The translations under genes were made by a program, and so were the position numbers. Under the pieces are notes generated by a model. The model saw only the letters and a list, made by a program, of their open reading frames with translations. It was not told where the DNA came from and searched no databases. A stretch of DNA of 64,000 nt from Eledone cirrhosa (Eukaryota), in NCBI GenBank assembly GCA_964016885.1, contig OZ024747.1:93806001-93870000 (forward strand). Direction: 5' to 3'. How positions within the stretch are numbered: the first letter of the stretch is position 1; every line of letters starts with the position of its first letter. Positions 14,601 through 55,300 of this stretch are shown one piece after another.

Positions 14601-15800
14601 CTGGCTTGTGTGTTCCCCCGATCTATAGGTGATCAAGTGATTGTCTCGTTTTTTGAAGTTAGTGTTACAGATAGTTAAGTTATTTGCGTCGCAGAATTCC
14701 AGGATTCTGGAGCCTTCCTCATTTCTAGTACCAAACCCATAGCCTCCATGGATTCCGTCATAGCCGTCACAATGTTGTCCAACGTGACCATTTAGGTCGC
14801 CTGCAATAATTATATAGTCACTGTCGGTTATTTGGGAGGTAGCGAGCATCAGTGTCTCGTAGAATCTGTCTTTTATAGCGCCGGGCAGTCCGGATTGGGG
14901 TGCGTACGCAGATATTACTGTCACCGTAGTTTTATTGAGGACAAGTCTTATTTTAATTATTCTGTCGTTCACTCTATTTACGTCTATTATCTTATCTACC
15001 CACTTTTCTGCTACCATGATTCCTACCCCACCCAGAAAAGCTTATAGCATCGTTCTTTACCCACGATGAATCTAGCCGACCCTCCCCTCCACCTGGTCTC
15101 TTGAATACAACAAACATCGACCTCCTTACGTTCAAGCATTTCTACAACCTCGTTAGAGCGACCCTTTAAGGTGCCTACATTCATGGTACCAACTCTGAAG
15201 TTTTGGATTGCGTTTGGAGGGTGGGAGCGGTGGGGCGCGCGGGGGGGGGGGGGTTATGTTAGCCATCCTGGGCCGAAACAAGGAGGAGTGCTTGCATTCT
15301 CGTCCACGAGGTGAATTTGTCTTTATCTTTGGCATTGTCGCTGAGCGTCCACATTTTTCTCTCTTCAACTCTCCAGAATTCCGTAGTCCATCCATCATAT
15401 CGAAAAGCAACCAGTTAAGCGATAGTATGGGCCTCTGACTTATGATTGGTCCACGTAATAATGGTGGTGCGTGGGGGCGGGTGGGAGGGTGATGGGTTGT
15501 TAGCGAGAATGTAAGGTTTAAGATAAGATCGCCGTATTTTGGGCATAATTTAACAATAAACGAAAATACAAGATTTGTTTTGTTTAAGAAAATACGATAG
15601 AGAAAATGCGGTGATAGGGAAAATATGATTTTTAGAGAAAAAATATGATATAGAATGGTGAAAATATGATATAGTGTGAAATTAGGACATAGAATAGTGA
15701 TTGAATGAATGGATTCGAATGGAGAGAAGAATCGAGAAAAATATTTGAACGTTACTTTATACCGAAGGAACAGCCATCCCAGAAATAGCGAGTTGGCGAT
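11677..15800 (-). mobile_element. Full-length RTE family 2 copy, pseudogenised
   Basis: Near-identical to 40328-45274. It has a 22-bp deletion between CCCACCCA repeats near 15030, a 1-bp deletion near 12629 and a +1 shift in the C-tract near 15245. (GAT)n tail, (TA)n flanks. Confidence 0.95.
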
Positions 15801-15869
15801 ATATATATATATATTTATATATATATATATATATAAACACATATACATATATATATATATATATATAAA

Positions 15870-36796: not shown

Positions 36797-37003
36797 CCAA
36801 GACATTCCCTAGGAGCACAGCAGACTGCGACAGTGACCCCAGAATTCCAAAGATGGCTTGAGACAGTTGGTACTGATGGTCAGCCAGCAGGGATGGTCTA
36901 ATAACTGGTTCTTTGACCATCAGTAGGATGATGTAGAGAATGGAGAGCTGGACATCGGTGTTGGGATGGGTCAGCGAGACAGCCAGACATGACAGAGTGA
37001 GGT
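36797..37003 (-). CDS. MEI1: MEI1 coding exon 5
   Basis: ctaacag and gtaagt, 207 nt, phase 1/1. NL...LTHPNTDVQLSILY...NVL resembles vertebrate NL...LVYPSEGIQASVCY...NCL. Confidence 0.92.
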
Positions 37004-37607
37004 CTGTTAGAGAGAGAGAGAGATTTAGTGACATGTGGGTATATATATATATGAATCAAAGTTCTGTTTAAACCATTTATTCGCTTACAATTGTTTCTTC
37101 CAAACCGAGGTTTGGAGTCTTCGGAGCAATTTTTCAATGATTGTTTACATACATGACCTCCTTTTCAACACAAGAGACATACAGAAACATATGTATATAT
37201 TGATGCACAGTGGGTTAATATCCATTATAATATTTTAGCATGACAATTTACATTCAAAGATTAAAGTCATATTAAAGAACAAAATTAAAGTTAAAATACA
37301 ACATTGGCAGTTTACGAAGGTAAAGCAAGAGGATAGTTTGAAGTAGTTAGTGTATGCAATAGTTACATGTGGGGCATGCACGTGTGTCTTATTTATATAA
37401 GATTATAGTGCGGCAGGGTGTTATATGTAATACAAGCACTTTAAGCGGGCAATCAAGAGTATTATGGGGGTTGTATTGGTAAAGTATTTTTGATATGTAT
37501 GATATAGAAGCTTGTGTGTGGAGAAATATTAAAAATATTAAAAACATTAAAAATGAGAAGCAAAACAATGTTATGGTTTTCGTATACACCATTTTCACAA
37601 TCTTATA

Positions 37608-37767
37608 TAGTAATAGTATTGGTTAGTATTCAGTTTTGGTTTTAAGTTTTACCGGTTGCGCATTTCTAATGCTTTTCAAAAATAATTTTGAGATAGAGCG
37701 CCCGTGACGTTTGCTCTAATCCAGATTAGAGCAAACGTCACGGGCGCTCTATCTCGAAATTATTTTT
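37608..37767. repeat. Partial palindrome derived from a Penelope tail (loop CA)
   Basis: About 43-bp near-perfect stem around the loop at 37722-37723. The left arm extends further and matches 38012-38125. Confidence 0.9.
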
Positions 37768-37933
37768 CTTACTGGTAATAAGGTAGTAATAAATTACTGT
37801 CTTTCACTATTTAGGGTTTAAAATATATATAACTATAAAAGGTTTTAGTATATACATAACCATAAATAGTATCCTTAATACTATATATATATATATATAT
37901 TTAAAAGAATAGAGGTGTAACACACGAGTTATG

Positions 37934-38315
37934 ATATATTGGTAAACGGAAAAGAAAATGCTGACAAATTGTTCCCAGTGAAAAATAGTTTAATTAGGAA
38001 TAAGTAAAAATTAGTAATAGTATTGGTTAGTATTCAGTTTTGGTTTTAAGTTTTACCGGTTGCGCATTTCTAATGCTTTTCAAAAATAATTTTGAGATAG
38101 AGCGCCCGTGACGTTTGCTCTAATCTGGATTAGAGCAAACGTCACGGGCGCTCTATCTCAAAATTATTTTTGAAAAGCATTAGAAATGCGCAACCGGTAA
38201 AACTTAAAACCAAAACTGAATACTAACCAATACTATTACTAATTTTTACTTATTCCTAATTAAACTATTTTTCACTGGGAACAATTTGTCAGCATTTTCT
38301 TTTCCGTTTACCAAT

Positions 38316-38319
<4 letters not shown>
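37934..38319. repeat. 386-bp palindrome: 192-bp arms with a 2-nt loop (TG)
   Basis: 37934-38125 is the reverse complement of 38128-38319, with no mismatch seen by eye. Confidence 0.95.
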
Positions 38320-38380
<61 letters not shown>

Positions 38381-38386
<6 letters not shown>

Positions 38387-40272
38387 AAAGAATAGAGGTG
38401 TAACACACAAGTTATATATTGGTAAACGGAATAGAAAATGCTGACAAATTGTTCACAGTGAAAAATAGTTTAATTAGGAATAAATAAGAATTAGTAATTG
38501 TATTGGTTAGTATTCAGTTTTGGTTTTAAGTTTTACCGGTTGCGCATTTCTAAATGCTTTTCAAAAATAATTTTGAGATAGAGCGTCCGTGATGTTTGCT
38601 CTGATCTGATTAGTTTTGGGAATTCTACCTGTTTTTATGTTAAAAAAGTGGCTCCAGCACTATTAAAATTGGTTTTTGCGCCAATTCGTGTTGCAAAAAT
38701 TCTTGTGGTCAAAACAATTTTGATTGGTCGGTAGAGGTCATGTGAATGTAAAAAATTGATTTTGCGCCAAGACTGAGAAATGACTCTTTCACAACAAATA
38801 TGTGTGTGTGTGCATGTGTGTGTGTATAAGTCTCTTTGTATGTTAATGTACACGTGTGTATGTGTGTGTATATATGTGTGTATGTGTGTGTGTGAGAATG
38901 TGTGTGTGTGTGTGTGTGTGGACCAGTATTTTTTTCCTGGTAAAATGGTGTACATTATTCGATATTTTCAGTAAAATCGATTCTCTCAATAGAACATCAA
39001 AAACCCTAACAATAAAAGGTGTGAAATGATATTCACTATATATATATATTTTTTTTGTGTTGCACCATAGAACATGTGTGTTTACGTATGTCATTGTGTT
39101 TATATGTGGGTAGAGATGTGTGCTGATGTAGGTATGTATTGATACCTGTGCCGCCCAAAATCATCCCAACTTCAGAATCTTTCCCCTCTACAAATTTAAA
39201 GACAATGCCACCCACACGCAGCGCATCAGCAAGGAATCTTACTTTATTAACAAATACGGACCCCGTCTAAACACTTCTCCCTAAGACGAACCCACAACAT
39301 ACACACGTCAACATACATACCTACATCAGCACACATCTCTACCCACATATAAACACAATGACATACGTAAACACACATGTTCTATGGTGCAACACAAAAA
39401 TATATATATATATATATATATAGTGAATATATGTATATATATATATATAGTGAATATCATTTCACACCTTTTATTGTTAAGGTTTTTGATGTTCTATTGA
39501 GAGAATCGATTCTACTGAAAATATCGAATAATGTACACCATTTTACCAGGAAAAAAATACTGGTCCACCCACACACACATATACACACACACATTAACAT
39601 ACAAAGAGACTTACACACACACTTCTCCGTATAAGACAAGAGCTGAAAAATATCTTTTAACATGTTAAAATATCCCCCACTCACAGACACATTCCTACTG
39701 ACCATCCCTCTACCACGATTTACTCTGCTACACACACACACACTTGTCTTAATAGGCATTTGAACTGTCAACAGGCTGCGGTTCGCACACACATCCCTGC
39801 TAAACATTATCACAACAACGAACACTTTACTACTACTACACACACACACACACATACATATTTGTTGTGAAAGAGTCATTTGTCAGTCTTGGCGCAAAAT
39901 CAATTTTTTACATTCACATGACCTCTACCGACCAATCAAAATTGTTTTGACCACAAGAATTTTTGCAACACGAATTGGCGCAAAAACCAATTTTAATAGT
40001 GCTGGAGCCACTTTTTTAACATAAAAACAGGTAGAATTCCCAAAACTAATCAGATCAGAGCAAACATCACGGACGCTCTATCCCAAAATTATTTTTGAAA
40101 AGCATTTAGAAATGCGCAACCGGTAAAACTTAAAACCAAAACTGAATACTAACCAATACAATTACTAATTCTTATTTATTCCTAATTAAACTATTTTTCA
40201 CTGTGAACAATTTGTCAGCATGTTCTATTCTGTTTACCAATATATAACTTGTGTGTTACACCTCTATTCTTT

Positions 40273-40278
<6 letters not shown>
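38381..40278 (+). mobile_element. Truncated Penelope-like element with long inverted pLTR arms
   Basis: Arms 38381-39142 and 39308-40278 are inverted, with an extra segment at about 39625-39835. The spacer 39147-39284 encodes CAAQNHPNFRIFPLYKFK...RISKESYFINKYGPRLN, resembling a PLE GIY-YIG C-terminus. Confidence 0.78.
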
Positions 40279-40325
<47 letters not shown>

Positions 40326-40384
40326 AAATCGCCAACTCGCTATTTCTGGGATGGCTGTTCCCTTCGGTATAAAGTAACGTTCAA

Positions 40385-41392
40385 ATTTTTCTCGATTCTT
40401 CTCTCCATTCGAACCCATTCATTCAATCACTTCTATGTCCTAATTTCACACTATATCATATTTTCACCATTCTATATCATATCTTTTCTCTAAAAATCAT
40501 ATTTTCCCTATCACCGCATTTTCTCTATCGTATTTTCTTAAACAAAACAAATCTTGTATTTTCGTTTATTGTTAAATTATGCCCAATTTTTTCTCGATTC
40601 TTCTCTCCATTCGAACCCATTCATTCAATCACTTCTATGTCCTAAATTCACACTATATCATATTTTCACCATTCTATATCATATCTTTTCTCTAAAAATC
40701 ATATTTTCCCTATCACCGCATTTTCTCTATCGTATTTTCTTAAACAAAACAAATCTTGTATTTTCGTTTATTGTTAAATTATGCCCAATTTTTTCTCGAT
40801 TCTTCTCTCCATTCGAACCCATTCATTCAATCACTTCTATGTCCTAAATTCACACTATATCATATTTTCACCATTCTATATCATATCTTTTCTCTAAAAA
40901 TCATATTTTCCCTATCACCGCATTTTCTCTATCGTATTTTCTTAAACAAAACAAATCTTGTATTTTCGTTTATTGTTAAATTATGCCCAATTTTTTCTCG
41001 ATTCTTCTCTCCATTCGAACCCATTCATTCAATCACTTCTATGTCCTAATTTCACACTATATCATATTTTCACCATTCTATATCATATCTTTTCTCTAAA
41101 AATCATATTTTCCCTATCACCGCATTTTCTCTATCGTATTTTCTTAAACAAAACAAATCTTGTATTTTCGTTTATTGTTAAATTATGCCCAATTTTTTCT
41201 CGATTCTTCTCTCCATTCGAACCCATTCATTCAATCACTTCTATGTCCTAATTTCACACTATATCATATTTTCACCATTCTATATCATATCTTTTCTCTA
41301 AAAATCATATTTTCCCTATCACCGCATTTTCTCTATCGTATTTTCTTAAACAAAACAAATCTTGTATTTTCGTTTATTGTTAAATCATGCCC
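40385..41392 (+). repeat. 202-bp unit repeated 5 times in the RTE 5' UTR
   Basis: Period 202 (40554, 40756, 40958, 41160). The sister element has one copy (15540-15740). Confidence 0.93.
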
Positions 41393-41747
41393 AAAATACG
41401 GCGATCTTATCTTAAACCTTACATTCTCGCTAACAACCCATCATCCCTCCCTCCCGCCCCCACGCACCACCATTATTACGTGGACCAATCATAAGTCAGA
41501 GGCCCATACTATCGCTTAACTGGTTGCTTTTCGATATGATGGATGGACTACGGAATTCTGGAGAGTTGAAGAGAGAAAAATGTGGACGCTCAGCGACAAT
41601 GCCAAAGATAAAGCCAAATTCACCTCGTGGACGAGAATGCAAGCACTCCTCCTTGTTTCGGCCCAGGATGGCTAACATAACCCCATCCCCCCCGCGCCCC
41701 ACCGCTCCCACCCTCCAAACGCAATCCAAAACTTCAGAGTTGGTACC

Positions 41748-44700
41748 ATGAATGTAGGCACCTTAAAGGGTCGCTCTAACGAGGTTGTAGAAATGCTTGA
41801 ACGTAAGGAGGTCGATGTTTGTTGTATTCAAGAGACCAGGTGGAGGGGAGGGTCGGCTAGATTCATCGTGGGTAAAGAACGATGCTATAAGCTTTTCTGG
41901 GTGGGAAATGACAATGGGTTGGGTGGGGTAGGAATCATGGTAGCAGAAAAGTGGGCAGATAAGATAATAGACGTAAATAGAGTGAACGACAGAATAATTA
42001 AAATAAGACTTGTCCTCAATAAAACTATGGTGACAGTAATATCTGCGTACGCACCCCAATCCGGACTGCCCCGCGCTATAAAAGAGAGATTCTACGAGAC
42101 ACTGATGCTCGCTACCTCCCAAATAACCGACAGTGACTATATAGTTATTGCAGGCGACCTAAATGGTCACGTTGGACAACATTGTGACGGCTATGACGGA
42201 ATCCATGGAGGCTATGGGTTCGGTACTAGAAATGAGGAAGGCTCCAGAATCCTGGAATTCTGCGACGCAAATAACTTAACTATCTGTAACACTAACTTCA
42301 AAAAACGAGACAATCACTTGATCACCTATAGATCGGGGGAACACACAAGCCAGGTAGATTATATCCTTACCAGAAGACGTGACAGAGTGTCTGTTGTTAA
42401 CACTAAATCCCACCCCCATGAAGAATTCACCTCCCTACATAGACTGATAATTAGCGACCTCATAGTCAGGACGAGACGTACTAGACAGCGGAAGAGGACT
42501 ATCCTCAGGAGAAAAATATGGAAGCTAAAGGACTCCATAGCCAGAAATAAATTTCAAAGCAAATTACTTGACGCTTTCGACAGTAAGGAAGAGCAATTAG
42601 AGTCGTATAATATAGAGGAACAGTGGGAATTCCTGAGAGCAAACCTGCTGACGGCGGCAGACGAAGTCTGTGGCTGGAGCAGGCCTGTAGGTAGGAGGAG
42701 AGTAACATGGTGGTGGAACAGTAAGGTGGAGGAGTCAATTAAGGCCAAAAAGCAGGCTTGGAAAGTATGGCGGGATGGGGGAAGTAGAGAAGACTATCAA
42801 GTGGCCAGGAGGGAAGCTAGGAGACAAGTGTACTTCGCAAGAAAGGAAGCAGAGGAAAGAAAGTTCAAGCATGTTCTACAACGTGAGGACCAAAAACGTG
42901 AGGTGTTCAGGATTGCCAGGCAATGTGTCAAGGAAAACCGTGATATTGTCGGGGAGAAGTGTGTACTTAACGATGATGGCATACTTGCCATCACCGACGC
43001 TGATAAGAAGGTAGCTTGGAAGTGTCACTACGAAAGGCTTCTAAATGAGGAGAACAAATGGGAGAAAGACAGTCTCCCCCAGATCGATCGAATAGAGGGA
43101 CCAGCAGTGTTAGTTGAAGGTAGTATAATAAGTAAGGCAATCAAAGATATGAAGACGGGTAAGGCGGCTGGGCCTTCGGAAATAGTTGCTGAGATGCTGA
43201 AGGCATCTGGTTCGGTGGGACACACCATGGTCACCCGGATAGTTAACCAAGTCGTACAGAATGGGGTTGTTCCGAAGGAATGGCGTAGCAGCATCATCGT
43301 TAACTGCTATAAGGAAAAAGGAGATGCCCTAGATAGGAGTAACTATAGAGGCATTAAATTAATCGACCAGGTCATGAAGGTCACGGAAAAAGTAATAGCG
43401 CAACTAATCAGAGAGAGAATTGATCTAGATGAAATGCAGTTCGGGTTTGTGTCAGGCAAAAGTACCACAGACGCTCTTTTCATTGTACGACAACTACAGG
43501 AGAAGTACCTAGCTAAAAGTAAACCCCTATACTTAGCTTTTGTCGACTTGGAGAAAGCCTTCGACAGAGTCCCCCGTTCCATTATCTGGTGGTCTCTTAG
43601 AAAACTAGGTGTTGACGAATGGCTTGTGAGAGCTATACAAGCCATGTATAAAGAAACAGTCAGTAAGGTTAAAATTAACAACGAATATAGTGAAGAGTTT
43701 AGCGTAAAAGTTGGTGTCCATCAGGGCTCTGTACTTAGCCCCCTACTATTTATTATTGCCCTTCAGGCTATAACAGAGGAGTTCAAGACCGGCTGCCCAT
43801 GGGAACTCCTATACGCAGATGATCTAACGCTCATAGCTGAATCAATGACCGAACTAGAGAAGAAATTCCAAACGTGGAAGCACGGCCTAGAATCAAAAGG
43901 CCTTAAAATTAACCTGGCTAAGACTAAAGTTCTAGTTTGTAGGAAAGAAAATAAGGCGGCGGTCCCATCGGGGAAATGGCCATGCTCAGTGTGTAGGAAA
44001 GGCGTAGGTAGAAACTCCATTTTATGTCCCAAATGCAAAGTATGGGTGCATAAAAGATGTAGTGGGATCACAGGTAAGCTAACTAAGAACATAGATTTTA
44101 CATGTGGCCGGTGCTCTGGTGCAATAAGTAGCAGCAAGTGCCCACAAAATACTAGCTCCTTCAACTGCGCAGAGGGTTCTATAGAAATAGTGGACAGCTT
44201 CCGTTATCTGGGTGACAAAATCAGCAGTGGGGGAGGGTGCTCTGAAAGTACAGTAGCTAGAGTCAGAACTGGATGGAAAAAGTTCAGAGAGCTTATACCA
44301 CTATTAGCCGCTAGAGGGTTCTCCCTAAAAATGAAAGGCAGGTTATACGATGCCTGCATACGAACAGCAATGCTGCATGGTAGTGAGACCTGGGCATTGT
44401 GTGCAGAGGATATACGCAGACTAGAGAGGAACGAAGCTTGCATGCTCCGCTGGATGTGCAATAGTAATATACGTGAACGGCAAAGCATAAACGAACTAAG
44501 GAAAAAATTAGAAATAAGAGGGATCAGATGTTGTTTACTCGAGAGAAGGCTACGTTGGTACGGTCACGTGATGCGCATGAAAGACGACAGCTGTATAACA
44601 AAGTGCAAGGCAATAAAGATAGACGGTAGCCACGGAGTAGGCAGACCCAGAAAAACATGGGACGAGCTGATAAATTCCGACCTCACACGCTTACACCTCT

Positions 44701-44768
44701 CCAAGACAATGTCACTGGACCGAGACCTTTGGCGGTACTCAGTAATAGAGAAGACCCGCCTTACCTAA
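41748..44768 (+). CDS. RTE polyprotein: APE endonuclease, reverse transcriptase and PHD-type finger (1006 aa)
   Basis: APE motifs NV, IQET, YAP, GDLN, QVDYIL, HR. RT motifs NYRGI, DLEKAFD, QGSVLSP, YADD, FRYLG. C4HC3 at 43983-44114. Confidence 0.96.
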   Translation: MNVGTLKGRSNEVVEMLERKEVDVCCIQETRWRGGSARFIVGKERCYKLFWVGNDNGLGGVGIMVAEKWADKIIDVNRVNDRIIKIRLVLNKTMVTVISAYAPQSGLPRAIKERFYETLMLATSQITDSDYIVIAGDLNGHVGQHCDGYDGIHGGYGFGTRNEEGSRILEFCDANNLTICNTNFKKRDNHLITYRSGEHTSQVDYILTRRRDRVSVVNTKSHPHEEFTSLHRLIISDLIVRTRRTRQRKRTILRRKIWKLKDSIARNKFQSKLLDAFDSKEEQLESYNIEEQWEFLRANLLTAADEVCGWSRPVGRRRVTWWWNSKVEESIKAKKQAWKVWRDGGSREDYQVARREARRQVYFARKEAEERKFKHVLQREDQKREVFRIARQCVKENRDIVGEKCVLNDDGILAITDADKKVAWKCHYERLLNEENKWEKDSLPQIDRIEGPAVLVEGSIISKAIKDMKTGKAAGPSEIVAEMLKASGSVGHTMVTRIVNQVVQNGVVPKEWRSSIIVNCYKEKGDALDRSNYRGIKLIDQVMKVTEKVIAQLIRERIDLDEMQFGFVSGKSTTDALFIVRQLQEKYLAKSKPLYLAFVDLEKAFDRVPRSIIWWSLRKLGVDEWLVRAIQAMYKETVSKVKINNEYSEEFSVKVGVHQGSVLSPLLFIIALQAITEEFKTGCPWELLYADDLTLIAESMTELEKKFQTWKHGLESKGLKINLAKTKVLVCRKENKAAVPSGKWPCSVCRKGVGRNSILCPKCKVWVHKRCSGITGKLTKNIDFTCGRCSGAISSSKCPQNTSSFNCAEGSIEIVDSFRYLGDKISSGGGCSESTVARVRTGWKKFRELIPLLAARGFSLKMKGRLYDACIRTAMLHGSETWALCAEDIRRLERNEACMLRWMCNSNIRERQSINELRKKLEIRGIRCCLLERRLRWYGHVMRMKDDSCITKCKAIKIDGSHGVGRPRKTWDELINSDLTRLHLSKTMSLDRDLWRYSVIEKTRLT

Positions 44769-45270
44769 ATACAAAGTAAAAACCTACTACAGTCAGTAGG
44801 CATCTCTATCAAAACACACCCCCGTCCCACCACCTCCACCCCACCCACACCGCCCCTTTCAATGTAAAGTTATGTTGGTCCCACAACATCCAGGCCGAAA
44901 CAAATGAGATCGTGTAGGTGTCACGACAAAAAACACACAGTCCACGCTGTAAATGTGGCCGTGTAGGCAACACGGTAAAAACCTCCCAGCCCCACACTGT
45001 AAATGTGGTTGGTGTTAGGAAGGGCATCCAGCTGTAGAAAACCCGCCAGACAGTCCACGCTGTAATGTGGCCGTGTAGGCAACACGGTAAAAACCTCCCA
45101 GCCCCACACTGTAAATGTGGTTGGTGTTAGGAAGGGCATCCAACTGTAGAAAACCCGCCAGACAGTCCTATGCGAGCAAGACAACCACTCTTGCCTCAAG
45201 TGGGAAAACCCCCGTCCAAACCCATGCAAGCGTGGAACACGGACGCTAAACCTGATGATGATGATGATGA

Positions 45271-45322
<52 letters not shown>

Positions 45323-45353
45323 CCCTCCCCAAGTATAACAATATATATATATA

Positions 45354-45869
45354 TTAGTGGTTAAAGCATTGGCCTTGCAATCAAAAGGTTGTGAGTTCAA
45401 TTCTCAGACAGGGTGGTGTGTTGTTTCCTTGAGCAAGATACTTTATTTCACATTGCTCCAGTTTACTCAGCTGTAGAAATGAGATGATAGGGACTGGGGT
45501 CCCTATCATTCCACTGCAAAGTGGTCTTGGAGGTGCCACAGCAAAAAAGCACCCAGCCCACACTGTAACGTGGACGTGTAGGTGCCACGGCAACAAAGCA
45601 CGCAGCACTCACTGTAAAGTGGTCGTGGAGGTGCCACAGCAACAAAGCACGTAGCCCACACTGTAAAATGGACGTGTAGGTGCCACGGAAAAAAAAAACA
45701 CCCAGCCCACATTGCAAAGTGGTCGTGGAGGTGCCACGGCAAAAAGAGCACCCAGCACTCACTGTAAATGAGGTTGGTGTTAGGAAAGGCATCCAGCTGT
45801 AGAAATCAAGCCAGAATCAGTTCCTGTCCCACCCTTGCAAGCAGGGAAAAGCAGACGTAAAATGATGAT
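45354..45869 (+). mobile_element. SINE A with about 5 copies of the 49-bp unit
   Basis: Partial A box, B box, CORE-like centre and RTE tail. Confidence 0.87.
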
Positions 45870-46173
45870 TTGATAAATTCTGACCTTACACACTTGCACC
45901 TCTCTAAGACAATGTTATTGGACCGAGATCTTTGGCGCTACGCAGTAATACAGAAGACCCACCTTGCCTATGTACAAAGCAAAACCTACAGACATTCTCT
46001 GTCTTAGATATATAGATAGATATATACAGAGAGAGAGAGAAGGGGGAAAGAAACTGTGTGTAATTGAGTTAGTGATGATGGATAGAGACAAATAAATCAA
46101 CGCAGTGCCCCCACATGGCCACAGTCTAATGACTGAAACCAGTAAAAGAATCTGGTAATATTGTAATACTCAC

Positions 46174-46282
46174 TATAAGAATGGTAGAATGTCTTAAGCA
46201 AGTCTTTCGAACTTTCCAGCAGACGTCCCAGTAGCACCATACAAGGCATGCACTTTTCTAGGTTGGAGCTGTTATTCTGAAT
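46174..46282 (-). CDS. MEI1: MEI1 coding exon 4
   Basis: ttttag and gtgagt, 109 nt, phase 0/1. VLLGRLLE resembles vertebrate TLLGKLVD. Confidence 0.9.
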
Positions 46283-46289
46283 CTAAAAG

Positions 46290-47460
46290 TAGATAATATT
46301 TAGGTGATCAGATGAGCAATGGAAGAGGGTGCTCCGAGGCCCTAGTATCTGGAATAAGGACGGTTTGGAAGAAGTTTAGGGAGCTGCTTCCTCTGCTGAC
46401 AAAGAAGGGTTTCTCCCCATGCGTACGAAAGGCCGGTTATATGATGCCTGTGTGAGGAGTGCGATGCTGCATGGTAGTGAGACATGGGCAGCAACTGCAG
46501 AGGATATGCGACGGCTGGAGAGAAATGAGGCAAGCATGCTCCGTTGGATGTGCAATGTCAATGTGCGTGAATGACCAAGCATGGATGTGTTGAGAGAGAA
46601 ACTGTGTCTGAGAGGGATAGAATGTAGTGTGCGAGAGAGGAGACTGAGATGGTATGGACATGTGGTGAGTTGAGAGAGAAACTGGGTATAAGAGGGATAA
46701 GTTGTTGTGTGTGGGAGAGAAGACTGAAATGGTATGGACATGTGATGTGTTGAGAGAGAAACTGTGTATAAGAGGGGTAAGTTGTGGTGTGTGGGAGAGA
46801 AGACTGAGATGGTATGGACATGTGATGAGTTGAGAGAGAAACTGTGTCTGAGAGGGATAAGCTGTGGTGTGTGGGAGAGAAGACTGTGTTGGTATGGACA
46901 TGTGATGTGTTGAGAGAGAAACTGTATATAAGAGGGATAAGCTGTGGTGTGTGGGAGAGAAGACTGAGATGGTATGGACATGTGATGTGTTGAGAGAGAA
47001 ACTGTGTCTGAGAGGGATAAGTTGTGGTGTGTGGGAGAGAAGACTGAGATGGTATGGACATGTGATGAGTTGAGAGAGAGACTGGGTATAAGAGGGATAA
47101 GTTGTGGTGTGTGGGAGAGAAGACTGAGATGGTATGGACATGTGATGAGTTGAGAGAGAAACTGGGTATAAGAGGGATAAGTTGTAGTGTGTGGGAGAGA
47201 AGACTGAGGTGGTATGGACATGTGATGTGCTTCGAGGATGACCGCTGAGTGAAGAAGTGCCAAGAAATCCCAGTTGAAGGAAGACGTGGTAGAGGTAGAC
47301 CACGAAAAACATGGGCGGAGGTGGTGAGAGCAGACCTCAGATCGCTGAAACTCATCGAGGAGATGACGAAGGACCGTGACAAGTTGAGAGATGCTGTGCT
47401 GAATAGGACCTGTCCCACCCTTGCAAGCAGGGAAAAGTGGACATAGATTCATGATGATGA
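46290..47460 (+). mobile_element. RTE family 3 3' fragment with 8 copies of the 80-bp unit and its native tail
   Basis: YLGD, MLHGSETWA and GRPRKTW regions. Unit period 80 (46591 to 47151). Ends CCTGTCCCACCCTTGCAAGCAGGGAAAAGTGGAC...(ATG)n. Confidence 0.92.
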
Positions 47461-47501
47461 TATATCAAACCCCCCCAAAAAATCATGGCATTTTTACTCA
47501 C

Positions 47502-47575
47502 CTGATTAGCCGCAAAATCCAGTACCAAGTTGGTTAACGAGTCAGACTTGGCCAGATGTAGCAATTTCACACAGA
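47502..47575 (-). CDS. MEI1: MEI1 coding exon 3
   Basis: tttccag and gtgagt, 74 nt, phase 1/0, VCVKLLHLAKSDSLTNLVLDFAANQ. Confidence 0.88.
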
Positions 47576-48101
47576 CTGGAAAAGATTAATAAAAGGGGCT
47601 AGAATATTTCAGTAATTTGATCTTTCTGATACCAAACTACCCTTGGGGTTTTTTAATAGAAAACTGTCCCCCTTCTTTTTCATGCGTGCACAATTTGTTA
47701 AGTTATCTTCCAAGCACCAGCTTAATAATGAGAAAGTTAGTTATATTTCTAAATATCTCCATATATGGTATCAAAAGGGTTAAAGTGTTTATATTTATGT
47801 AAGAACCTTTGTTAAGTTATGTTCCATTAAAAATATGGTAAGGAAAGTGTTAAAGTGTTTATATTAACGTAAGAACCTTTGTTAAGTTATGTTCCATTAG
47901 AAATATGGTAAGGATAGGGTTAAAGTGTTTATATTTATGTAAGAACCTTTGTTAAGTTATGTTCCATTAGAAATATGGTAAGCAAAGGGTTAAAGTGTTT
48001 ATATTTATGTAAGAACCTTTGTTAAGTTATGTTCCATTATAAGTGTATGTAAGATCCTTTGTTAAGTTACATTCCATCAAAGGTTGAAGAAGTATATTTA
48101 C

Positions 48102-48149
48102 CTTCAATGGCTAAAGACAGAAAGTTCTCTTCTGTAGTTTCCAATAAAC
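48102..48149 (-). CDS. MEI1: MEI1 coding exon 2
   Basis: ttttag and gtaaat, 48 nt, phase 1/1. GLLETTEENFLSLAIE resembles vertebrate GLLCSMEDGSVTDLCIE. Confidence 0.88.
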
Positions 48150-48254
48150 CTAAAATGTTAAAATTATCATTATTTTTATTATTCGGAGCATGCTTGCTTC
48201 ATTTCTCTCCAGCCTTTCTCATAACAACAAATGCATGAAGGACTTCTCGTTTGC

Positions 48255-49050
48255 ATGGAGAACCATGCGGCCACACTTAGAATTTGCATCACCAGTCTGG
48301 AACCCCTATCTTGCTCAGAACATTGACCTCCTGGAAACTGTTCAGAGACGTGCAACCAATAGAATGAATACCCTCCATCAGGCATCTACCATACTCTGAA
48401 TGCCTTGCTTCTCTGGGCATGGATTCATTGAAGCTCCGACGTCTGGCAACTGACTTGGTAAACACCCACAAAATTATTAACCATCTCACCAACAACAGCC
48501 CTGAGCACCTTTTTGATTTCCATGTGTTTAACACACATGGCCATGCCCACAAAGTCAGAAAACAATACAGCTCCCATGACTTTCGGAAACACTTTTTCAT
48601 GCTCAGAGTTGCTGAAGCATGGAACAAACTACCTGCATCAGTTGTTAGCTGTCGAGACACTGCATCCTTTAAAACCTCCATGGAACAAACTACCTGCGTC
48701 AGTTGTTAGCTGTCGAGACACTGCATCCTTTAAAACCTCCATGGAACAAACTACCTTCATCAGTTGTTAGCTGTCGAGAAACTGCATCCTTTAAAACCTC
48801 CATGGAACAAACTACCTGCGTCAGTTGTTAGCTGTCGAGACACTGCATCCTTTAAAACCTCCATGCTTCCCGAGATTTGCCAACACTACACCTAATATCC
48901 TCCCTCTATACACACACACACATGTATATCATGACTTGTACACTGTTCATTTTACTGACGTTTGTACATTACCCTATGTACTATACATGCACCTTTGATG
49001 AGTTGTAGTGCACCTGAGCACTGTACACAATAATTTCATTATTATTATTA
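48255..49050 (+). mobile_element. CR1-clade LINE 3' fragment with 4 copies of a 61-bp unit
   Basis: RPHLEFASPVWNP, LETVQRRAT and FFMLRVAEAWNKLP are CR1-type C-terminal motifs; (ATT)n tail. Confidence 0.9.
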
Positions 49051-49075
49051 CATATATATATAATATTGAAAGTAT

Positions 49076-49250
49076 CGGTAGAGGGTCGGACGCCATGCTT
49101 TGCAGCAAAAAGTTACGGCCCTTTATGATCTGAATTCAAATCCCACCGAAGTTAACTTTGCCTTTCATCCTTACGAGGTCAATAAAATAAAGTACCAGTA
49201 ATACACTGGGATAATTGCTGGCCTTGTGCCAAAATTAGAAACAATTATTA
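49076..49250 (+). mobile_element. SINE B copy
   Basis: Matches the reverse complement of 20600-21200 without the expansion. Confidence 0.78.
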
Positions 49251-49252
49251 TA

Positions 49253-49597
49253 TCATCATATTTTTTTTTTTAACGTCCACTTTTCCCTGCTTGCAAGGGT
49301 GGGACAGGAACTGATTCTGGCTTGATTTCTACAGCTGGATGCCCTTCCTAACACCAACCTCATTTACAGTGAGTGGTGGGTGCTTTTTTTCCGTGGCACC
49401 TCCACGACCACTTTACAGTGTGTGCTGGGTGCTTTTTTGCCATGGCACCTCCACGACCACTTTGCAGTGGAGTAAACTGGAGCAATGTGAAATAAAGTGT
49501 CTTGCTCAAGGAAACAACTCATCACCCGGTCCAAGAATTGAACTCACAACCTTTCGATTGCAAGGCCAATGCTCTAACCACTAAGCCATGTGCCTCC
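49253..49597 (-). mobile_element. SINE A copy lacking the internal hairpin
   Basis: Full head GGAGGCACATGGCTTAGTGG and tail. The ATGATAGGGAC/GTCCCTATCAT segment is deleted. Confidence 0.87.
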
Positions 49598-49770
49598 ACA
49601 CACACATATATATATATATATATAGTATTATCCGTAGTGTTGTAATATGAATATTATACACAGTAGATGGACAGCTTACGTAGGGTTTGCTCGACGGCTC
49701 CAGTTGTAGTTTCAAAAGTAATCCGGAGAAAATAGGAGGATTTAAATGGATACAGTTCAGTAAAAGGAGT

Positions 49771-49892
49771 TTATTGACACGTGTTTCAATAAAAAGTTAT
49801 ATAACCTGAAAACAGCTGCTATCTACAAAGTATTAATTATGCAGACACTCAATATTCCAATGTTATTTTCAACTACCATTTCATCAGGATAA
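49771..49892 (-). ncRNA. Hammerhead ribozyme in the 3' pLTR, slightly degenerate
   Basis: TTATC-CTGATGA-[long stem II]-GAAAC-ACGT-GTC-AATAA, with a C/A mismatch in stem I. Confidence 0.75.
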
Positions 49893-50445
49893 TCTCATTG
49901 AGAACTTGTTTGGTTTTTATAGAGAATATTAAGAGGGAGGAGTGAAGTTGTTAGAAGAATAGTTAAGGGAGTGGATAGAAATTTTTGATAGCAGTGGGTC
50001 ATTAGATTCCCATCTGTTATTTTGTTAGTTGAGTTTGACATTTTTATAGAATATTCATTATTTGGCGTTGGCTGTATTGGTTATTTTTCTAAATCTATAG
50101 AAGGATTAGAGATAGTAAAGATATGCATGGTTGGTTTTGTGTTTGCACTTAATTCACATACAGACTTAAATTTTTCTTTCAAGTGTACTTATTCGTTTGC
50201 CCACACATAAATATATGCGTATATATACTTATTTTTTTATAAAAAACATACACATTCACACACTTACATATATGTACACCTCGACAAATACATACACTCA
50301 CATACACATACTTACATACATATATACCTGTACACATATATATATATATATACATATATGTGTACATACATACGCATTCGTGTATATACACTTTCATACT
50401 CTACTTATCTTCATATACACACATATATACATACATACTCTTGTC

Positions 50446-50477
<32 letters not shown>

Positions 50478-50775
50478 AACACACATATACATGAATACAC
50501 ATACATTTAATTATACACATCAAACATATATATATATATATACACTCACCCACTTATTTACTTATTTATATACCTTTTCACATATATACATTCATATGGT
50601 CGCTTTTAGACACATTCATTATAGCATATTCGCACCTATTCTCGCCAGCATATTTATCCATTATTAGTGTGATAATTTAAGGTTATTAATAGTACATATA
50701 TATGTTGAGAAGAGATTGTTTTTATATTTTTCTAACTAGATTGAGGATTTGTATAGTTGGGAGGATGTCCCTCGT

Positions 50776-52146
50776 TTATGTAATATTCAGCTTGTAGTGG
50801 GAAAAAAGGGTTTTAGTTCGGTGACGGCAGAATAATGTTCGTTCAATTCTGTTATTAAGCAATTTCTTCTTGTGTGTGATTATGTAATAAATCTCAAGAT
50901 TACATAATTTGCAGAAATTTTGGTTCCTGGAAAAGCATTGGGTTTTAGCTAATTTCTCCCATTTTAGGGTAAACTTTTGATCGCTATCCCTGAGCGTCCA
51001 AGCTTTTTCTGCTAAAGTTGTTACATTTCTTTGGCTCTGGTGTTTTATTGAGTAAGAATGCCTATATAATCGAGATTTAAACGATGTTGCCGTTGATCCC
51101 ACGTAATACCACTTGTTGCCTCCGGATTCAATGGTACACTTATAGATGATATTTTTTTCAAGGCAGTTATTGCCGAGGGGGCAATTGTCAGGATAGGTGC
51201 AGTTACAGTTGTGTACATTGGTTTTGTAGTTAGGTTCACTCTGGAGTAGTATTGCGGACGCACTTAGGTGTGGTTTATTTATGTTCTGTAGTGTATTGTC
51301 TACTGTTTTTTTTGTGCTCTTTGTACTTAAGTTCTTAGTGTTTTCATTTAACCTTCTAGTATTAATCTTTTTTATGTGTTGTTCAAGGTTTAATGCTGTA
51401 GAGTATGACAGTCTTATAGTGGTAGGGTTTAGGATTTTGTGGTATTTGTGTGATGTAGGAAAATGTTTCTTAACTATTTTAAAGAAGAGTACTGGTAAAT
51501 TTGTACTAATGGAACTATTGTATTCAGGGTTATACCATAAGTACTCTTTGCATCGCTTTCTATTAGTTTTGTTTGTTGGTTTATTGGTGTGTACACTATG
51601 GTAGTAAGTGTGGTTTGGTGTATTATTTCTACCTATGTGGGATTTATTTTGGGTGTTTTGATTGTTTTCATCTATATATTCTATTTTGTTGAGGTAGCCT
51701 GCTTTACTAAGGGCGGTATCGTAGTACTCAGCGTGTTCCTTAAATACTTGTATGTTAGAAGATAGACCCGAGATTCTAAGGGAGATATTTTTAGGGATAG
51801 ATTTAATTATAGAGATGGGGTGGTTAGACCCAACATTCACGTACTTGAGATTTTCATTCAATTTATGAAACGGTTTAATCAGACCAGAGTTTAAATTGAG
51901 TGTGACATCCAGGAAGTTAACTACTTTAAGGTTGTGTTCATATCTTATAGTTAGTCCTATTTCAAGTAGTAGTTTTCTTGTATCTTTGCGTAGTTTTTCT
52001 AGTTTTTGGTTATCTAGGTTTTTAACTAGGAAGAGAGCATCATCGCAGTATATTCCACCGTGGAGATTACTGAATTTTTCCTGGAGTCTAAAGGCGATAA
52101 ATAACCCCACAATATCAGTTATTCCTGCCGAATCGTTAGAGCCCAT
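50776..52146 (-). CDS. Penelope-like RT C-terminal half plus GIY-YIG endonuclease
   Basis: (FDIT)MGSNDSAGITDIVGL, YCDD, VNFLDVTL, SNHP, WYNP, CNC-x5-CPLGNNC linker, NIIYKC...YVGST..FKSR, CKLCNLE, CRH. Confidence 0.92.
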   Translation of the reverse strand: MGSNDSAGITDIVGLFIAFRLQEKFSNLHGGIYCDDALFLVKNLDNQKLEKLRKDTRKLLLEIGLTIRYEHNLKVVNFLDVTLNLNSGLIKPFHKLNENLKYVNVGSNHPISIIKSIPKNISLRISGLSSNIQVFKEHAEYYDTALSKAGYLNKIEYIDENNQNTQNKSHIGRNNTPNHTYYHSVHTNKPTNKTNRKRCKEYLWYNPEYNSSISTNLPVLFFKIVKKHFPTSHKYHKILNPTTIRLSYSTALNLEQHIKKINTRRLNENTKNLSTKSTKKTVDNTLQNINKPHLSASAILLQSEPNYKTNVHNCNCTYPDNCPLGNNCLEKNIIYKCTIESGGNKWYYVGSTATSFKSRLYRHSYSIKHQSQRNVTTLAEKAWTLRDSDQKFTLKWEKLAKTQCFSRNQNFCKLCNLEIYYIITHKKKLLNNRIERTLFCRHRTKTLFSHYKLNIT

Positions 52147-52197
52147 TGTTATGTCAAATAATATTCTCTATAAAAACCAAACAAGTTCTCAATGAGA

Positions 52198-52318
52198 TTA
52201 TTCTGATGAAATGGTAGTTGAAAATAACATTGAAATATTGAGTGTCTGCATAATTAATACTTTGTAGATAGCAGCTGTTTTCAGGTTATATAACTGTTAT
52301 TGAAACACGTGTCAATAA
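52198..52318 (+). ncRNA. Type I hammerhead ribozyme in the inverted 5' pLTR
   Basis: Stem I TTATT/AATAA, core CTGATGA, stem II AATGGTAGTT/AACTGTTATT enclosing 72 nt, then GAAAC-ACGT-GTC. Predicted cut after 52313. Confidence 0.85.
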
Positions 52319-52370
52319 ATTCCTTTTACTGAACTGTATCCATTTAAATCCTTCTATATATATATATATA

Positions 52371-55300
52371 TCATCATCATCATCATCATCATCAACGTTT
52401 AACGTCCGTGTTCCACGCTTGCATGGGTTTGGACGGGGGTAGTCCCACTTGAGGCAAGAGTGATTGTCTTGCTCGCATAGGACTGTCTGGCAGGTTTTCT
52501 ACAGTTGGATGCCCTTCCTAACACCAACCACATTTACAGTGTGGGTCTGGGAGGTTTTTACCGTGTTGACTACACGGCCACATTACAGCGTGGACTGTGT
52601 GTTTTTTTGTCGTGACACCTACACGATCTCATTTGTTTCGGCCTGGATGGCGCGGCACCAACATAACTTTACATAGAACGGGGTGGTGTGGATGGGGTGG
52701 GGGTGGTGGCGGGACGGGGTGTATTTTGTTAGAGATGCCTACTGGCAAGGCGGGTCTTCTCTGTTACTGAGTACCGCCAAAGGTCTCGGTCCAGTGACAT
52801 TGTCTTGGAGTGGTGTAAGTGTGTGAGGTCGGAGTTTATCAGCTCATCCCATGTTTTTTCTAGGTCTGCCTATTCCGTGGCTACCGTCTATCTTTATTGC
52901 CCTGCACTTTGTTATACAGCTATCGACTTTCATGCGCATCACGTGTCCATACCAACGCAGCCTTCTCTCGAGTAAACAACATCTGATCCCTCTTATCTCT
53001 AATTTTTTCCTTAGTTCGTTTATGCTTTGCCGTTCACGTATATTACTGTTACACATCCAGCGGAGCATGCAAGCTTCGTTCCTCTCTAGTCTGCGTATAT
53101 CCTCTGCACACAATGCCCAGGTCTCACTACCATGCAACATTGCTGTTCGTATGCAGGCATCGTACAACCTGCCTTTCATTTTTAGGGAGAACCCTTTAGC
53201 AGCTAATAGTGGTATAAGCTCTCTGAACTTTTTCCAACCGGTTCTGACTCTAGCTACAGTACTTTCAGAGCACCCTCCCCCACTGCTGATTTTATCGCCC
53301 AGGTAACGGAAGCTGTCCACTATTTCTATAGAACCCTCTGCGCAATTGAAAGAGCTAGTATTTTGTGGGCACTTGCTGCTACTTATTGCACCAGAACACC
53401 GGCCACATGTAAAATCTATGTTCTTAGTTAGCTTACCTGTGATCCCACTAATCTTTTATGCACCCATACTTTGCATTTAGGACATAAAATGGAGTTTCTA
53501 CCTACGCCTTTCCTACACACCGAGCACGACCATTTCCCAGAAGGGACCGCCGCCTTGTTTTCTTTCCTACAAACTAGAACTTTGGTCTTAGCCAGGTTAA
53601 TTTTAAGTCCTTTTGACTCTAGGCCGTGCTTCCATGTTTGGAATTTCTTCTCTAGCTCGGCCATTGATTCCGCTATGAGTGTCAGGTCGTCTGCGTATAG
53701 GAGTTCCCATGGGCAGCCTGTCTTGAACTCCTCTGTTATAGCCTGAAGGGCAATAATAAATAGTAGGGGGCTGAGAACAGAGCCCTGATGGACGCCAACT
53801 TTTACGCTAAACTCTTCACTATATTCGTTGTTAATTCTAACCTTGCTGACTGTTTCTTTATACATGGCTTGTATAGCCCTCACAAGCCATTCGTCAACGC
53901 CTAGTTTTCTAAGAGCCCACCAGATAATGGAGCGGGGGACTCTGTCGAAGGCTTTCTCCAGGTCGACAAAAGCTAAGTAGAGGGGTCTACCTTTAGCTAG
54001 GTACTTCTCCTGTAGTTGTCGTACTATGAAAAGGGCGTCTGTGGTGCTTTTGCCTGACACAAACCCGAACGGCATTTCATCTAGGTCAATTCTCTCTCTG
54101 ATTAGTTGCGCTATTACTTTTTCCGTGACCTTCATGACCTGGTCGATTAATTTAATGCCTCTATAGTTACTCCTATCTAGGGCGTCTCCTTTACCCTTAT
54201 AACAGTTAACGATGATGCTGCTATGCCAGTCCTTCGGAACAACCCCATTCTGTACGACTTGGTTAACTATGCGGGTGACCATGGTGTGTCCCACCGTGCC
54301 AGATGCCTTCAGCATCTCTGCAACTATTTCCGAAGGCCCAGCCGCCTTACCCGTCTTCATATCCTTGATTGCCTTACTTATTATACTCCCCTCGACTAAC
54401 ACTGCTGGTCCCTCTATCGGGTCGATATGGGGGAGACTGTCTTTCTCCCATTTATTCTCCTCATTTAGTAGCCTTTCATAGTGACACTTCCAAGCTACCT
54501 TCTTATCAGTGTCGGTGATGGCAAGTATGCCATCATCGTTAAGTACACACTTCTCCCCGACAATATCACGGTTTTCATTGACGCATTGCCTGGCAATCCT
54601 GAACACCTCACGTTTTTGGTCATCGCGTTGTAGAACATGCTTGAACTTTCTTTCCTCAGCTTCCCTTCTTGCTAAGTACACTTCTCTCCTAGCTTCCCTC
54701 CTGGCCACTTGATAGTCTACTCTACTTCCCCCATCCCGCCATACTTTCCAAGCCTGCTTTTTGGCCTTAATTGACCCCTCCACCCTACTGTTCCACCACC
54801 AAGTTACTCTCCTCCTGCCTACAGGCCTGCTCCAGCCACAGACTTCGTCTGTCGCCAACAGCAGGTTTGCTTTCAGAAATTCCCACTGTCCCTCTATATT
54901 GTCCGATTCTAGATGCTCTTCCTTACTGTCGAAAGCATCAAGTAATATGCTTTGAAATTTATTTCTGGCTGTGGGGTCCTTTAGTTTTCATATTTTCCTC
55001 CTGAGGATAGTCCTCTTCTGCTGTCGAGTACGTCTCGTCCTGACTATGAGGTCGCTAATTATCAGTCTATGTTGGGAGGTGCATTCTTCATGGGGGAGGG
55101 ATTTAGTGTTTACAACAGACACTCTGTCACGTCTTCTGGTAAGGATATAATCTACCTGGCTTGTGTGTTCCCCTGATCTACAGGTGATCAGGTGATTGTC
55201 ACGTTTTTTGAAGTTAGTGTTACAGATAGTTAGGTTATTTGCATCACAGAATTCCAGGATTCTGGAGCCTTCCTCATTTCTAGTACCAAACCCATAGCCT

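What the first reader, a model, noticed from the sequence alone, without database searches (positions are those of the whole stretch)
37608..38319. Penelope-tail palindromes with flip/flop loops
Seen: two adjacent hairpin elements share arm sequence and fold at the same point, but their loops are reverse complements (AATC-CA-GATT and AATC-TG-GATT). One has 192-bp arms with no visible mismatch. The arms match the outer end of the neighbouring Penelope element, which reads CTGATCTGATTAG at the fold point and then continues unfolded. Known: flip/flop loops mark hairpin resolution in parvoviruses, and PLEs make inverted 5' ends. Inference: a minimal palindromic non-autonomous PLE derivative made by snap-back at a fixed micro-hairpin, possibly passing through a hairpin intermediate. 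Simple insertion in opposite orientations would give the same pattern.
Basis: partly seen in the sequence, partly recalled or inferred. Interest (0 to 1): 0.72.

Follow-up and report, generated by a model that had tools for sequence, protein, structure and literature searches.

The report
Penelope stubs joined head to head
The hairpins are real, stub-sized, mirror-image insertions of a Penelope-like jumping gene, and their either-way centres, seen about half and half across the genome, likely arise when two DNA copies made at the two cut strands pair at their tips, not from a virus-like hairpin cycle.

Summary
Real, but not parvovirus-like. Hairpin 2 (long arm with Penelope 'tail', short arm, TA repeats outside) is a spacerless head-to-head insertion of the terminal repeat (pLTR) of a Neptune-like Penelope element; 1,278 loci fold within a few bases of this site. 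Hairpin 1 has arms of 114 and 44 nt and is likely a local inverted copy of hairpin 2 (1 mismatch in 160; a shared variant seen 10 times genome-wide, 4 of them here), so the window's CA/TG pair is trivial. Genome-wide, read against the tail-bearing arm, both centre orientations do occur: T:A 16:14 in one subfamily, 10:12 in another that folds 3 nt away, also in copies with identical arms; TG:CA is 13:5. Arms follow several parent haplotypes, so hairpins were likely made many times, not copied as one family. Best reading: two cDNAs primed on both target strands likely run to the RNA's predicted start and pair at their 3' tips, either tip surviving. This argues against one-cDNA snap-back. The RNA start is untested. 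The scan reached a similar reading for other Penelope families in this genome; the balanced-centre test is what this case adds.

The parts
37608..37767 (.). Hairpin 1: 114-nt arm, centre CA (37722-37723), 44-nt arm; likely a local inverted copy of 38082-38241
   Evidence: 1 mismatch to the inverted donor including the centre; rare shared variant; TTATTTTT shared with the host repeat at the right junction
37899..37933 (-). Penelope 'tail': extra ~33 nt on the long arm only, running into (TA)n
   Evidence: long end at reference position 225-227, short end near 192-196; same two ends in parent copies
37934..38125 (-). Hairpin 2, long arm (pLTR, sense on - strand)
   Evidence: the same sequence precedes the first ATG in a near full-length copy L136:1569-1820
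38120..38133 (.). Junction CTAATC-TG-GATTAG; the parent has CTAATC-A-GATYAG here, containing an initiator-like TCAGATY (consensus recalled)
   Evidence: arm starts pile up here
38128..38319 (+). Hairpin 2, short arm (pLTR without tail), ending ACCAATATAT into (TA)n
38384..39139 (-). Inverted 5' part of the neighbouring Penelope-like insertion (GATCAG subfamily), unfolded site at 38601-38613
   Evidence: L071
39141..39284 (+). C-terminal end of the GIY-YIG endonuclease of the neighbour
   Evidence: 98-99% DNA matches lie at the end of RT + GIY-YIG frames in other copies
39285..40276 (+). 3' region and pLTR + tail of the neighbour; unfolded site CTAATCAGATCAG at 40046-40058

Best explanation
These are spacerless head-to-head insertions of the terminal repeat of a Penelope-like retrotransposon, likely made when two cDNAs, primed on the two nicked strands of a TA repeat, run to the predicted 5' end of the element's RNA and pair with each other at their 3' tips. 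Shown: one arm carries the ~33-nt tail and the other lacks it, as in the longer head-to-head copies of the parent; folds pile up within a few bases of one site; the centre occurs in both orientations about equally. From published work on another PLE: both strands are nicked and extended, and copying starts at two RNA sites whose spacing is the tail. Inferred: the cDNAs end near ...ATCTG-3'; in the GATTAG subfamily they overlap around a T.T mismatch (centre T or A), in the GATCAG subfamily over CTGATCTG with two T.T mismatches (trimmed to the perfect TCTGATCAGA, or one cDNA's tip kept); which tip survives is a coin toss. The TG/CA centre is a minor join with one more G. Hairpin 1 is likely a later or simultaneous local inverted copy of hairpin 2's middle.
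For: Orientation against the tail arm: T 16: A 14 of 58 orientable among 70 loci (p 0.86); TCTGATCTGA 10: 12 among 24 such loci of 30 examined, 2 not orientable, with both orientations among copies with 0 arm mismatches. Genome counts: perfect form 503, one-tip form 343, both-tips form 1, so the T is not random decay and the two mismatches are not fixed independently. One long plus one short end in 15 of 16 two-site parent loci (17 fetched, hand-picked). Tail-anchored sample of 90: 23 of 58 sense starts and 21 of 36 inverted starts within reach fall in -6..+10; 14 loci stop there on one side only against about 3 expected; 2 read (TA)n directly into CAGATTAG, and 60-70 raw reads per run do the like in 3 other samples. 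Arms cluster with several unfolded parent haplotypes and centre types are mixed across them. No age difference T vs A (p 0.10). PMC11167929 (parts 1-2 of 4 read): both strands cleaved and extended, two RT start sites equal the tail, product shortens with RNA 5' truncation.
Against: No RNA data: the RNA start is inferred from an initiator-like motif (recalled consensus) and from DNA ends. Where the pLTR is followed by the ORF, only 1 of 18 copies that reach the site stops there, against 23 of 57 for terminal copies (p 0.008); a plain RNA 5' end predicts stops in both unless strand transfer is added. The same junctions could come from microhomology deletion inside longer head-to-head copies, and one-sided stops could be later deletions of hairpins. 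The predicted overlap is weak for the GATTAG subfamily if cDNAs end at -1 (self-duplex -3.0 kcal/mol). TG:CA is skewed 13:5 (p 0.10) and the CA copies look older (p 0.12), which would fit later flipping in that class. The window's neighbour has tails at both ends. Samples come mostly from the first contig listed.
Confidence: 0.58

Rival explanations
1. Longer head-to-head insertions collapse later (or during integration) by microhomology deletion: in an inverted repeat the quasi-palindrome appears as a direct repeat, so deleting between the two copies leaves a hairpin with T or A at the centre. No RNA start is needed.
For: Gives every main junction form, the long/short ends and the subfamily-specific centres (12 of 13 matches for GATTAG, 8 of 10 at the GATC register for GATCAG); thousands of unfolded sites, many in -/+ pairs; another fold at a different quasi-palindrome 37 nt upstream (L211; L142, L144); explains why ORF-side copies do not stop at the site.
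Against: 14 one-sided stops at the site against about 3 expected; none of the first 50 junctions holds unambiguous sequence from upstream of -1; extra G or T right after CTG in 5 of 5 orientable cases on the tail arm.
Confidence: 0.22
2. One cDNA snaps back on a micro-hairpin and copies itself; the centre is flipped later by recombination or centre-break repair of the palindrome.
For: Both arms often share private variants; L017 copies 79 nt of its own arm before switching to another subfamily's arm; extra-G forms are biased to the tail arm; CA copies look older than TG; PMC3846280 (passages) reads junction palindromes as self-priming.
Against: Both orientations among the youngest copies and no age trend for T vs A; a fold-back from the short arm cannot make a tail; the GATCAG cDNA end has no predicted hairpin yet that subfamily gives most folds.
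Confidence: 0.14
3. The palindrome is a self-propagating non-autonomous element with a hairpin DNA intermediate resolved as in parvoviruses.
For: Fixed length, defined ends, over a thousand copies, both centre forms.
Against: Arms interleave with several parent haplotypes of two subfamilies and centre types do not form clades; ends equal the parent's ends; centres are heterogeneous.
Confidence: 0.04
4. The TG/CA centres are CpG decay products of a perfect CG centre.
For: 5 loci have a CG centre; deamination gives TG or CA.
Against: CG is 5 of 24 two-base centres while 86% of arm CpGs are kept in the same copies (122 of 142); cannot explain T/A.
Confidence: 0.02

Closest known systems
Inverted pLTR plus optional tail of endonuclease-bearing Penelope-like elements (PMC3846280, part 1 of 5 and passages; PMC8557442, passages)
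   Same: Head-to-head inverted terminal repeats, 30-40 nt tail at one end, (TA)n targets, ~200-nt pLTR, palindromes at the pLTR 5' end and at inverted junctions, initiator-like motif in the pLTR.
   Different: Here the insert is only the two pLTRs with no spacer, in over a thousand copies, and the junction shows two balanced orientations; the paper reads junction palindromes as self-priming, which the balance does not favour.
Poseidon element of the green anole, in vitro (PMC11167929, parts 1-2 of 4)
   Same: Two RT start sites that define the tail, cleavage and extension on both strands at AT-rich DNA, predicted dimer.
   Different: There the start sites lie inside the ORF and a hammerhead is present; here they lie ~40 nt before the first ATG and no hammerhead core was found in the element. 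The joining step was not studied there.
L1 twin priming (recalled, not read)
   Same: Two cDNAs primed on both target strands and joined through microhomology.
   Different: L1 gives a 5' inversion of different parts of one RNA; here both cDNAs copy the same stretch, giving a mirror.
Parvovirus flip/flop termini (recalled, not read)
   Same: Two reverse-complement forms of a hairpin centre at equal frequency.
   Different: No replication initiator, nick site or terminal position; the forms lie at different chromosomal loci and were not shown at one locus.

Membership tests
EN+ Penelope-like elements (parent) | RT followed by a C-terminal GIY-YIG endonuclease | tested here: met
   RVT_1 and GIY-YIG above curated cut-offs in L132; the window's neighbour holds the last 48 codons
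EN+ Penelope-like elements (parent) | pLTR in direct or inverted orientation with an optional 30-40 nt tail | tested here: met
EN+ Penelope-like elements (parent) | Single ORF | tested here: not met
   A 435-437 codon upstream ORF overlaps the RT frame (-1) in 6 of 30 loci with an uninterrupted first ORF; one protein by frameshift is possible, untested
EN+ Penelope-like elements (parent) | Hammerhead ribozyme in the pLTR (common, not universal) | tested here: inconclusive
   No Rfam hammerhead hit in 37000-53000, but Rfam also missed the core of the other element at 49732-52357; a core-motif scan found none in the pLTR
Neptune/Nematis clades | CX2-5CxxC linker before GIY-YIG, CCHH motif, (TA)n bias | tested here: met
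   CDRPNCGIC before the endonuclease and two cysteines inside it (definition from PMC8557442 passages)
Neptune/Nematis clades | Placement on an RT tree | not tested
   no reference set fetched
Non-autonomous self-copying element | Copies form their own clade with shared diagnostic changes | tested here: not met
   hairpin arms share haplotypes with unfolded parents of both subfamilies (172 arm sequences)
Parvovirus-type terminal resolution | Both centre forms at one locus or terminus, made by nicking and strand displacement | tested here: inconclusive
   available runs are contigs or reduced-representation reads that cannot be tied to one locus
Parvovirus-type terminal resolution | Rep/NS1-type initiator acting on the hairpin | not tested
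   no such frame among the window's ORFs of 150 codons or more by inspection; genome not searched

The most novel reading that the evidence does not exclude
Penelope-like elements integrate by a dimer that makes two strong-stop cDNAs, and the 5' end of the RNA carries a quasi-palindrome that lets the two cDNA tips pair; the hairpin stub is the captured double strong-stop product, while transfer of a tip to the 3' repeat, as in LTR elements, builds the long tandems. The 50:50 centres are the fossil of that mismatched duplex.
Probability: 0.35. Interest if true: 0.72.

Novelty: new variant of a known kind. Interest (0 to 1): 0.44.

Why it matters
How Penelope-like elements make their inverted ends is stated as unresolved in the papers read (PMC8557442, PMC11167929). 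These stubs give a countable test between self-priming and two-cDNA joining: the centre is balanced against the tail arm in two subfamilies with different centres, and the both-tips form is nearly absent (1 against 503 and 343). The prediction can be run in the existing in vitro system. Over a thousand ~420-nt palindromes are also a likely source of double-stranded RNA where transcribed (not tested).

Tried and rejected
CpG decay of a CG centre: rejected. Rfam search: only sub-threshold microRNA-shaped hits to the hairpin, no ribozyme. Read laying: no RNA holder listed; contigs and reduced-representation reads pile up from many copies and cannot test one locus. A multiple alignment of arms was unusable and was replaced by reference-anchored projection; the middle's output was cut. 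One search failed on a script error and was rerun. A downstream promoter element: GGACG at +20 only loosely recalls the RGACGTG of D. virilis Penelope (PMC2377424, passages) and is at another distance; not used. Search of earlier findings by sequence: nothing. Paper searches listed no paper on balanced junction orientations or twin priming in Penelope elements; most subscription papers are not in the library and no supplements were opened, so absence from print is not shown.

Full report
Observation. Hairpin 2 is a perfect 192-bp palindrome with centre TG; its left arm runs on for about 33 nt (the tail) into (TA)n, its right arm stops at ACCAATATAT in (TA)n. Hairpin 1 has centre CA but pairs for only 44 nt. 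It matches the reverse complement of 38082-38241 with 1 mismatch in 160, centre included, and the direct copy with 3. All four arms carry AAACGTCAC where relatives have AAACATCAC; a 22-nt pattern with this variant occurs 10 times in 3 Gb, 4 of them here. The pair is therefore one insertion and a likely local inverted copy, and its CA/TG contrast says nothing about mechanism.

Parent. The neighbour (38384-40276) ends a GIY-YIG frame at 39141-39284. A DNA search gave 1,030 candidates, 40 scored at 98-100%; longer copies encode RT and GIY-YIG with a CX4CX2C linker, the mark of the Neptune/Nematis clades in PMC8557442 (passages; no tree built). In a near full-length copy the hairpin arm stands both before the first ATG and at the 3' end: the arm is the pLTR. 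Unfolded copies of the fold site number 1,018 (GATTAG type) and 3,592 (GATCAG type). The window's hairpins are GATTAG type, the neighbour GATCAG type. Of 17 hand-picked parent loci, 16 had two sites and 15 of these had one long and one short end; the hairpins have the same two ends. PMC11167929 (parts 1-2 of 4) ties this tail to two RT start sites and shows nicking and extension of both strands.

Census of folds. 1,278 loci match a pattern that allows any junction of up to 24 nt at this site (lower bound, exact flanks needed). 368 fold at CTRATC-n-GATYAG; of the first 50 listed, 37 have a 1-nt centre and 45 are GATTAG type on both arms. The exact TG/CA form has 19 loci, CG 5. The GATCAG subfamily folds 3 nt away: perfect TCTGATCAGA 503, one-sided TCTGATCTGN 343, both-sided TCAGATCTGA 1. 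The fold point is thus a hotspot, not a single position, and it moves with the local self-complementarity.

Flip/flop test. A centre has an orientation only against an asymmetry, so I used the tail. Of 70 loci (19 TG/CA, 5 CG, 46 more from the first contig), 58 could be oriented, 11 lacked a clear tail and 1 had two: T 16, A 14, TG 13, CA 5, CG 3, TCA 3, four single forms. Of 30 one-sided GATCAG loci, TCTGATCTGA was tail-left in 10 and tail-right in 12 (2 not orientable), with both among copies whose arms are identical; forms with G or T after CTG were tail-left in 5 of 5 orientable. Distance to the nearest other arm did not differ between T and A (p 0.10); CA copies looked older than TG (p 0.12). 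So flip/flop exists genome-wide. CpG decay fails: 86% of arm CpGs are kept but CG is 5 of 24 two-base centres. Snap-back of the tail-bearing cDNA alone would give one orientation.

One family or many events. Projected on a reference, arms fall into several haplotypes shared with unfolded parents, and T, A, TG and CA are mixed within them; GATCAG-type hairpins match GATCAG parents down to 0 differences. Hairpins were likely made afresh many times. The two arms of one copy usually share a haplotype and often private variants, which fits one template RNA or later conversion; L017 switches subfamily within one arm.

Why this site. In a tail-anchored sample (first 90 of 5,533 matches), 32 sense arms run further than 120 nt upstream and were set aside; 23 of the other 58 start within -6..+10 of the central A, as do 21 of 36 inverted arms. 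Fifteen loci stop there on both sides and 14 on one side only, against about 3 expected. Two read (TA)n straight into CAGATTAG, and raw reads from three other samples show the same kind of end (60, 70, 64 reads) and folds with a 1-nt centre. The site reads TCAGATY, an initiator-like motif (consensus recalled). Against a plain RNA start: where the pLTR is followed by the ORF, 1 of 18 copies that reach the site stops there, against 23 of 57 terminal copies (p 0.008). No RNA run was available.

Mechanism. Shown: unequal ends, hotspot, balanced centres, many origins. From the literature: two-strand priming at two RNA sites. Inferred: both cDNAs stop near ...ATCTG-3', pair through the self-complementary tips with one or two T.T mismatches, and one tip is extended on the other or the duplex is replicated unrepaired, giving either orientation; trimming both tips gives the perfect form. 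Confidence 0.58. Collapse of longer head-to-head copies by microhomology deletion gives the same junction sequences (0.22) and is the main rival; snap-back with later flipping 0.14; a self-copying hairpin family 0.04.

Comparison. The layout is the known inverted pLTR with optional tail (PMC3846280, PMC8557442). PMC3846280 notes palindromes at pLTR 5' ends and inverted junctions and reads them as self-priming. Nine paper searches listed nothing on balanced junction orientations in these elements; coverage of the library is partial and no supplements were opened. Earlier unchecked notes of this scan on other Penelope families in this genome reach the RNA-start and two-primer reading too; they are not independent support. 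I had noted the twin-cDNA idea before that look-up.

Verdict. A real, abundant by-product of a known class. The window's pair is trivial; the genome-wide balance of centres is a useful, testable clue to an open step in Penelope integration. Interest 0.44.

Noticed in passing
L136:1820-3130 and L178-L207 (parent element): The parent has two overlapping frames: a 435-437 codon first ORF with no Pfam hit, uninterrupted in 6 of 30 loci, each with the RT motifs in the -1 frame; an in-frame T-TTT-TTA slippery-type heptamer is kept in 16 of 18 loci that could be read, with no strong downstream structure predicted. Canonical EN+ PLEs are described as single-ORF (PMC8557442). Candidate programmed -1 frameshift; one paper search listed no report of it.
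   Followed up: partly
window 49732-52357: A second, unrelated Penelope-like element (21% protein identity to the first) with 200-nt inverted ends and a CTGATGA...GAAA hammerhead-like core in them that Rfam did not report.
   Followed up: partly
L142, L144, L211: A second fold site about 37 nt upstream, at another quasi-palindrome (TTTTT-AACAT-AAAAA).
   Followed up: partly
L017: One arm copies 79 nt of its partner and then restarts in a different subfamily's sequence: a two-template insertion.
   Followed up: no
window 37300-37607 and 37761-37873: The flanks of hairpin 1 belong to another abundant repeat that hairpin 1 interrupts.
   Followed up: partly
window 40382-41394: About five tandem copies of a 202-nt unit in the 5' region of a LINE with endonuclease and RT (41676-44768); a related copy at 15234-15851 has fewer units.
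   Followed up: no
L136:211-614, L137:1-294, L136:6753-7103, L145:1333-1589: Further unrelated 250-400 nt palindromes sit right beside these insertions; such hairpins seem common in this genome.
   Followed up: no
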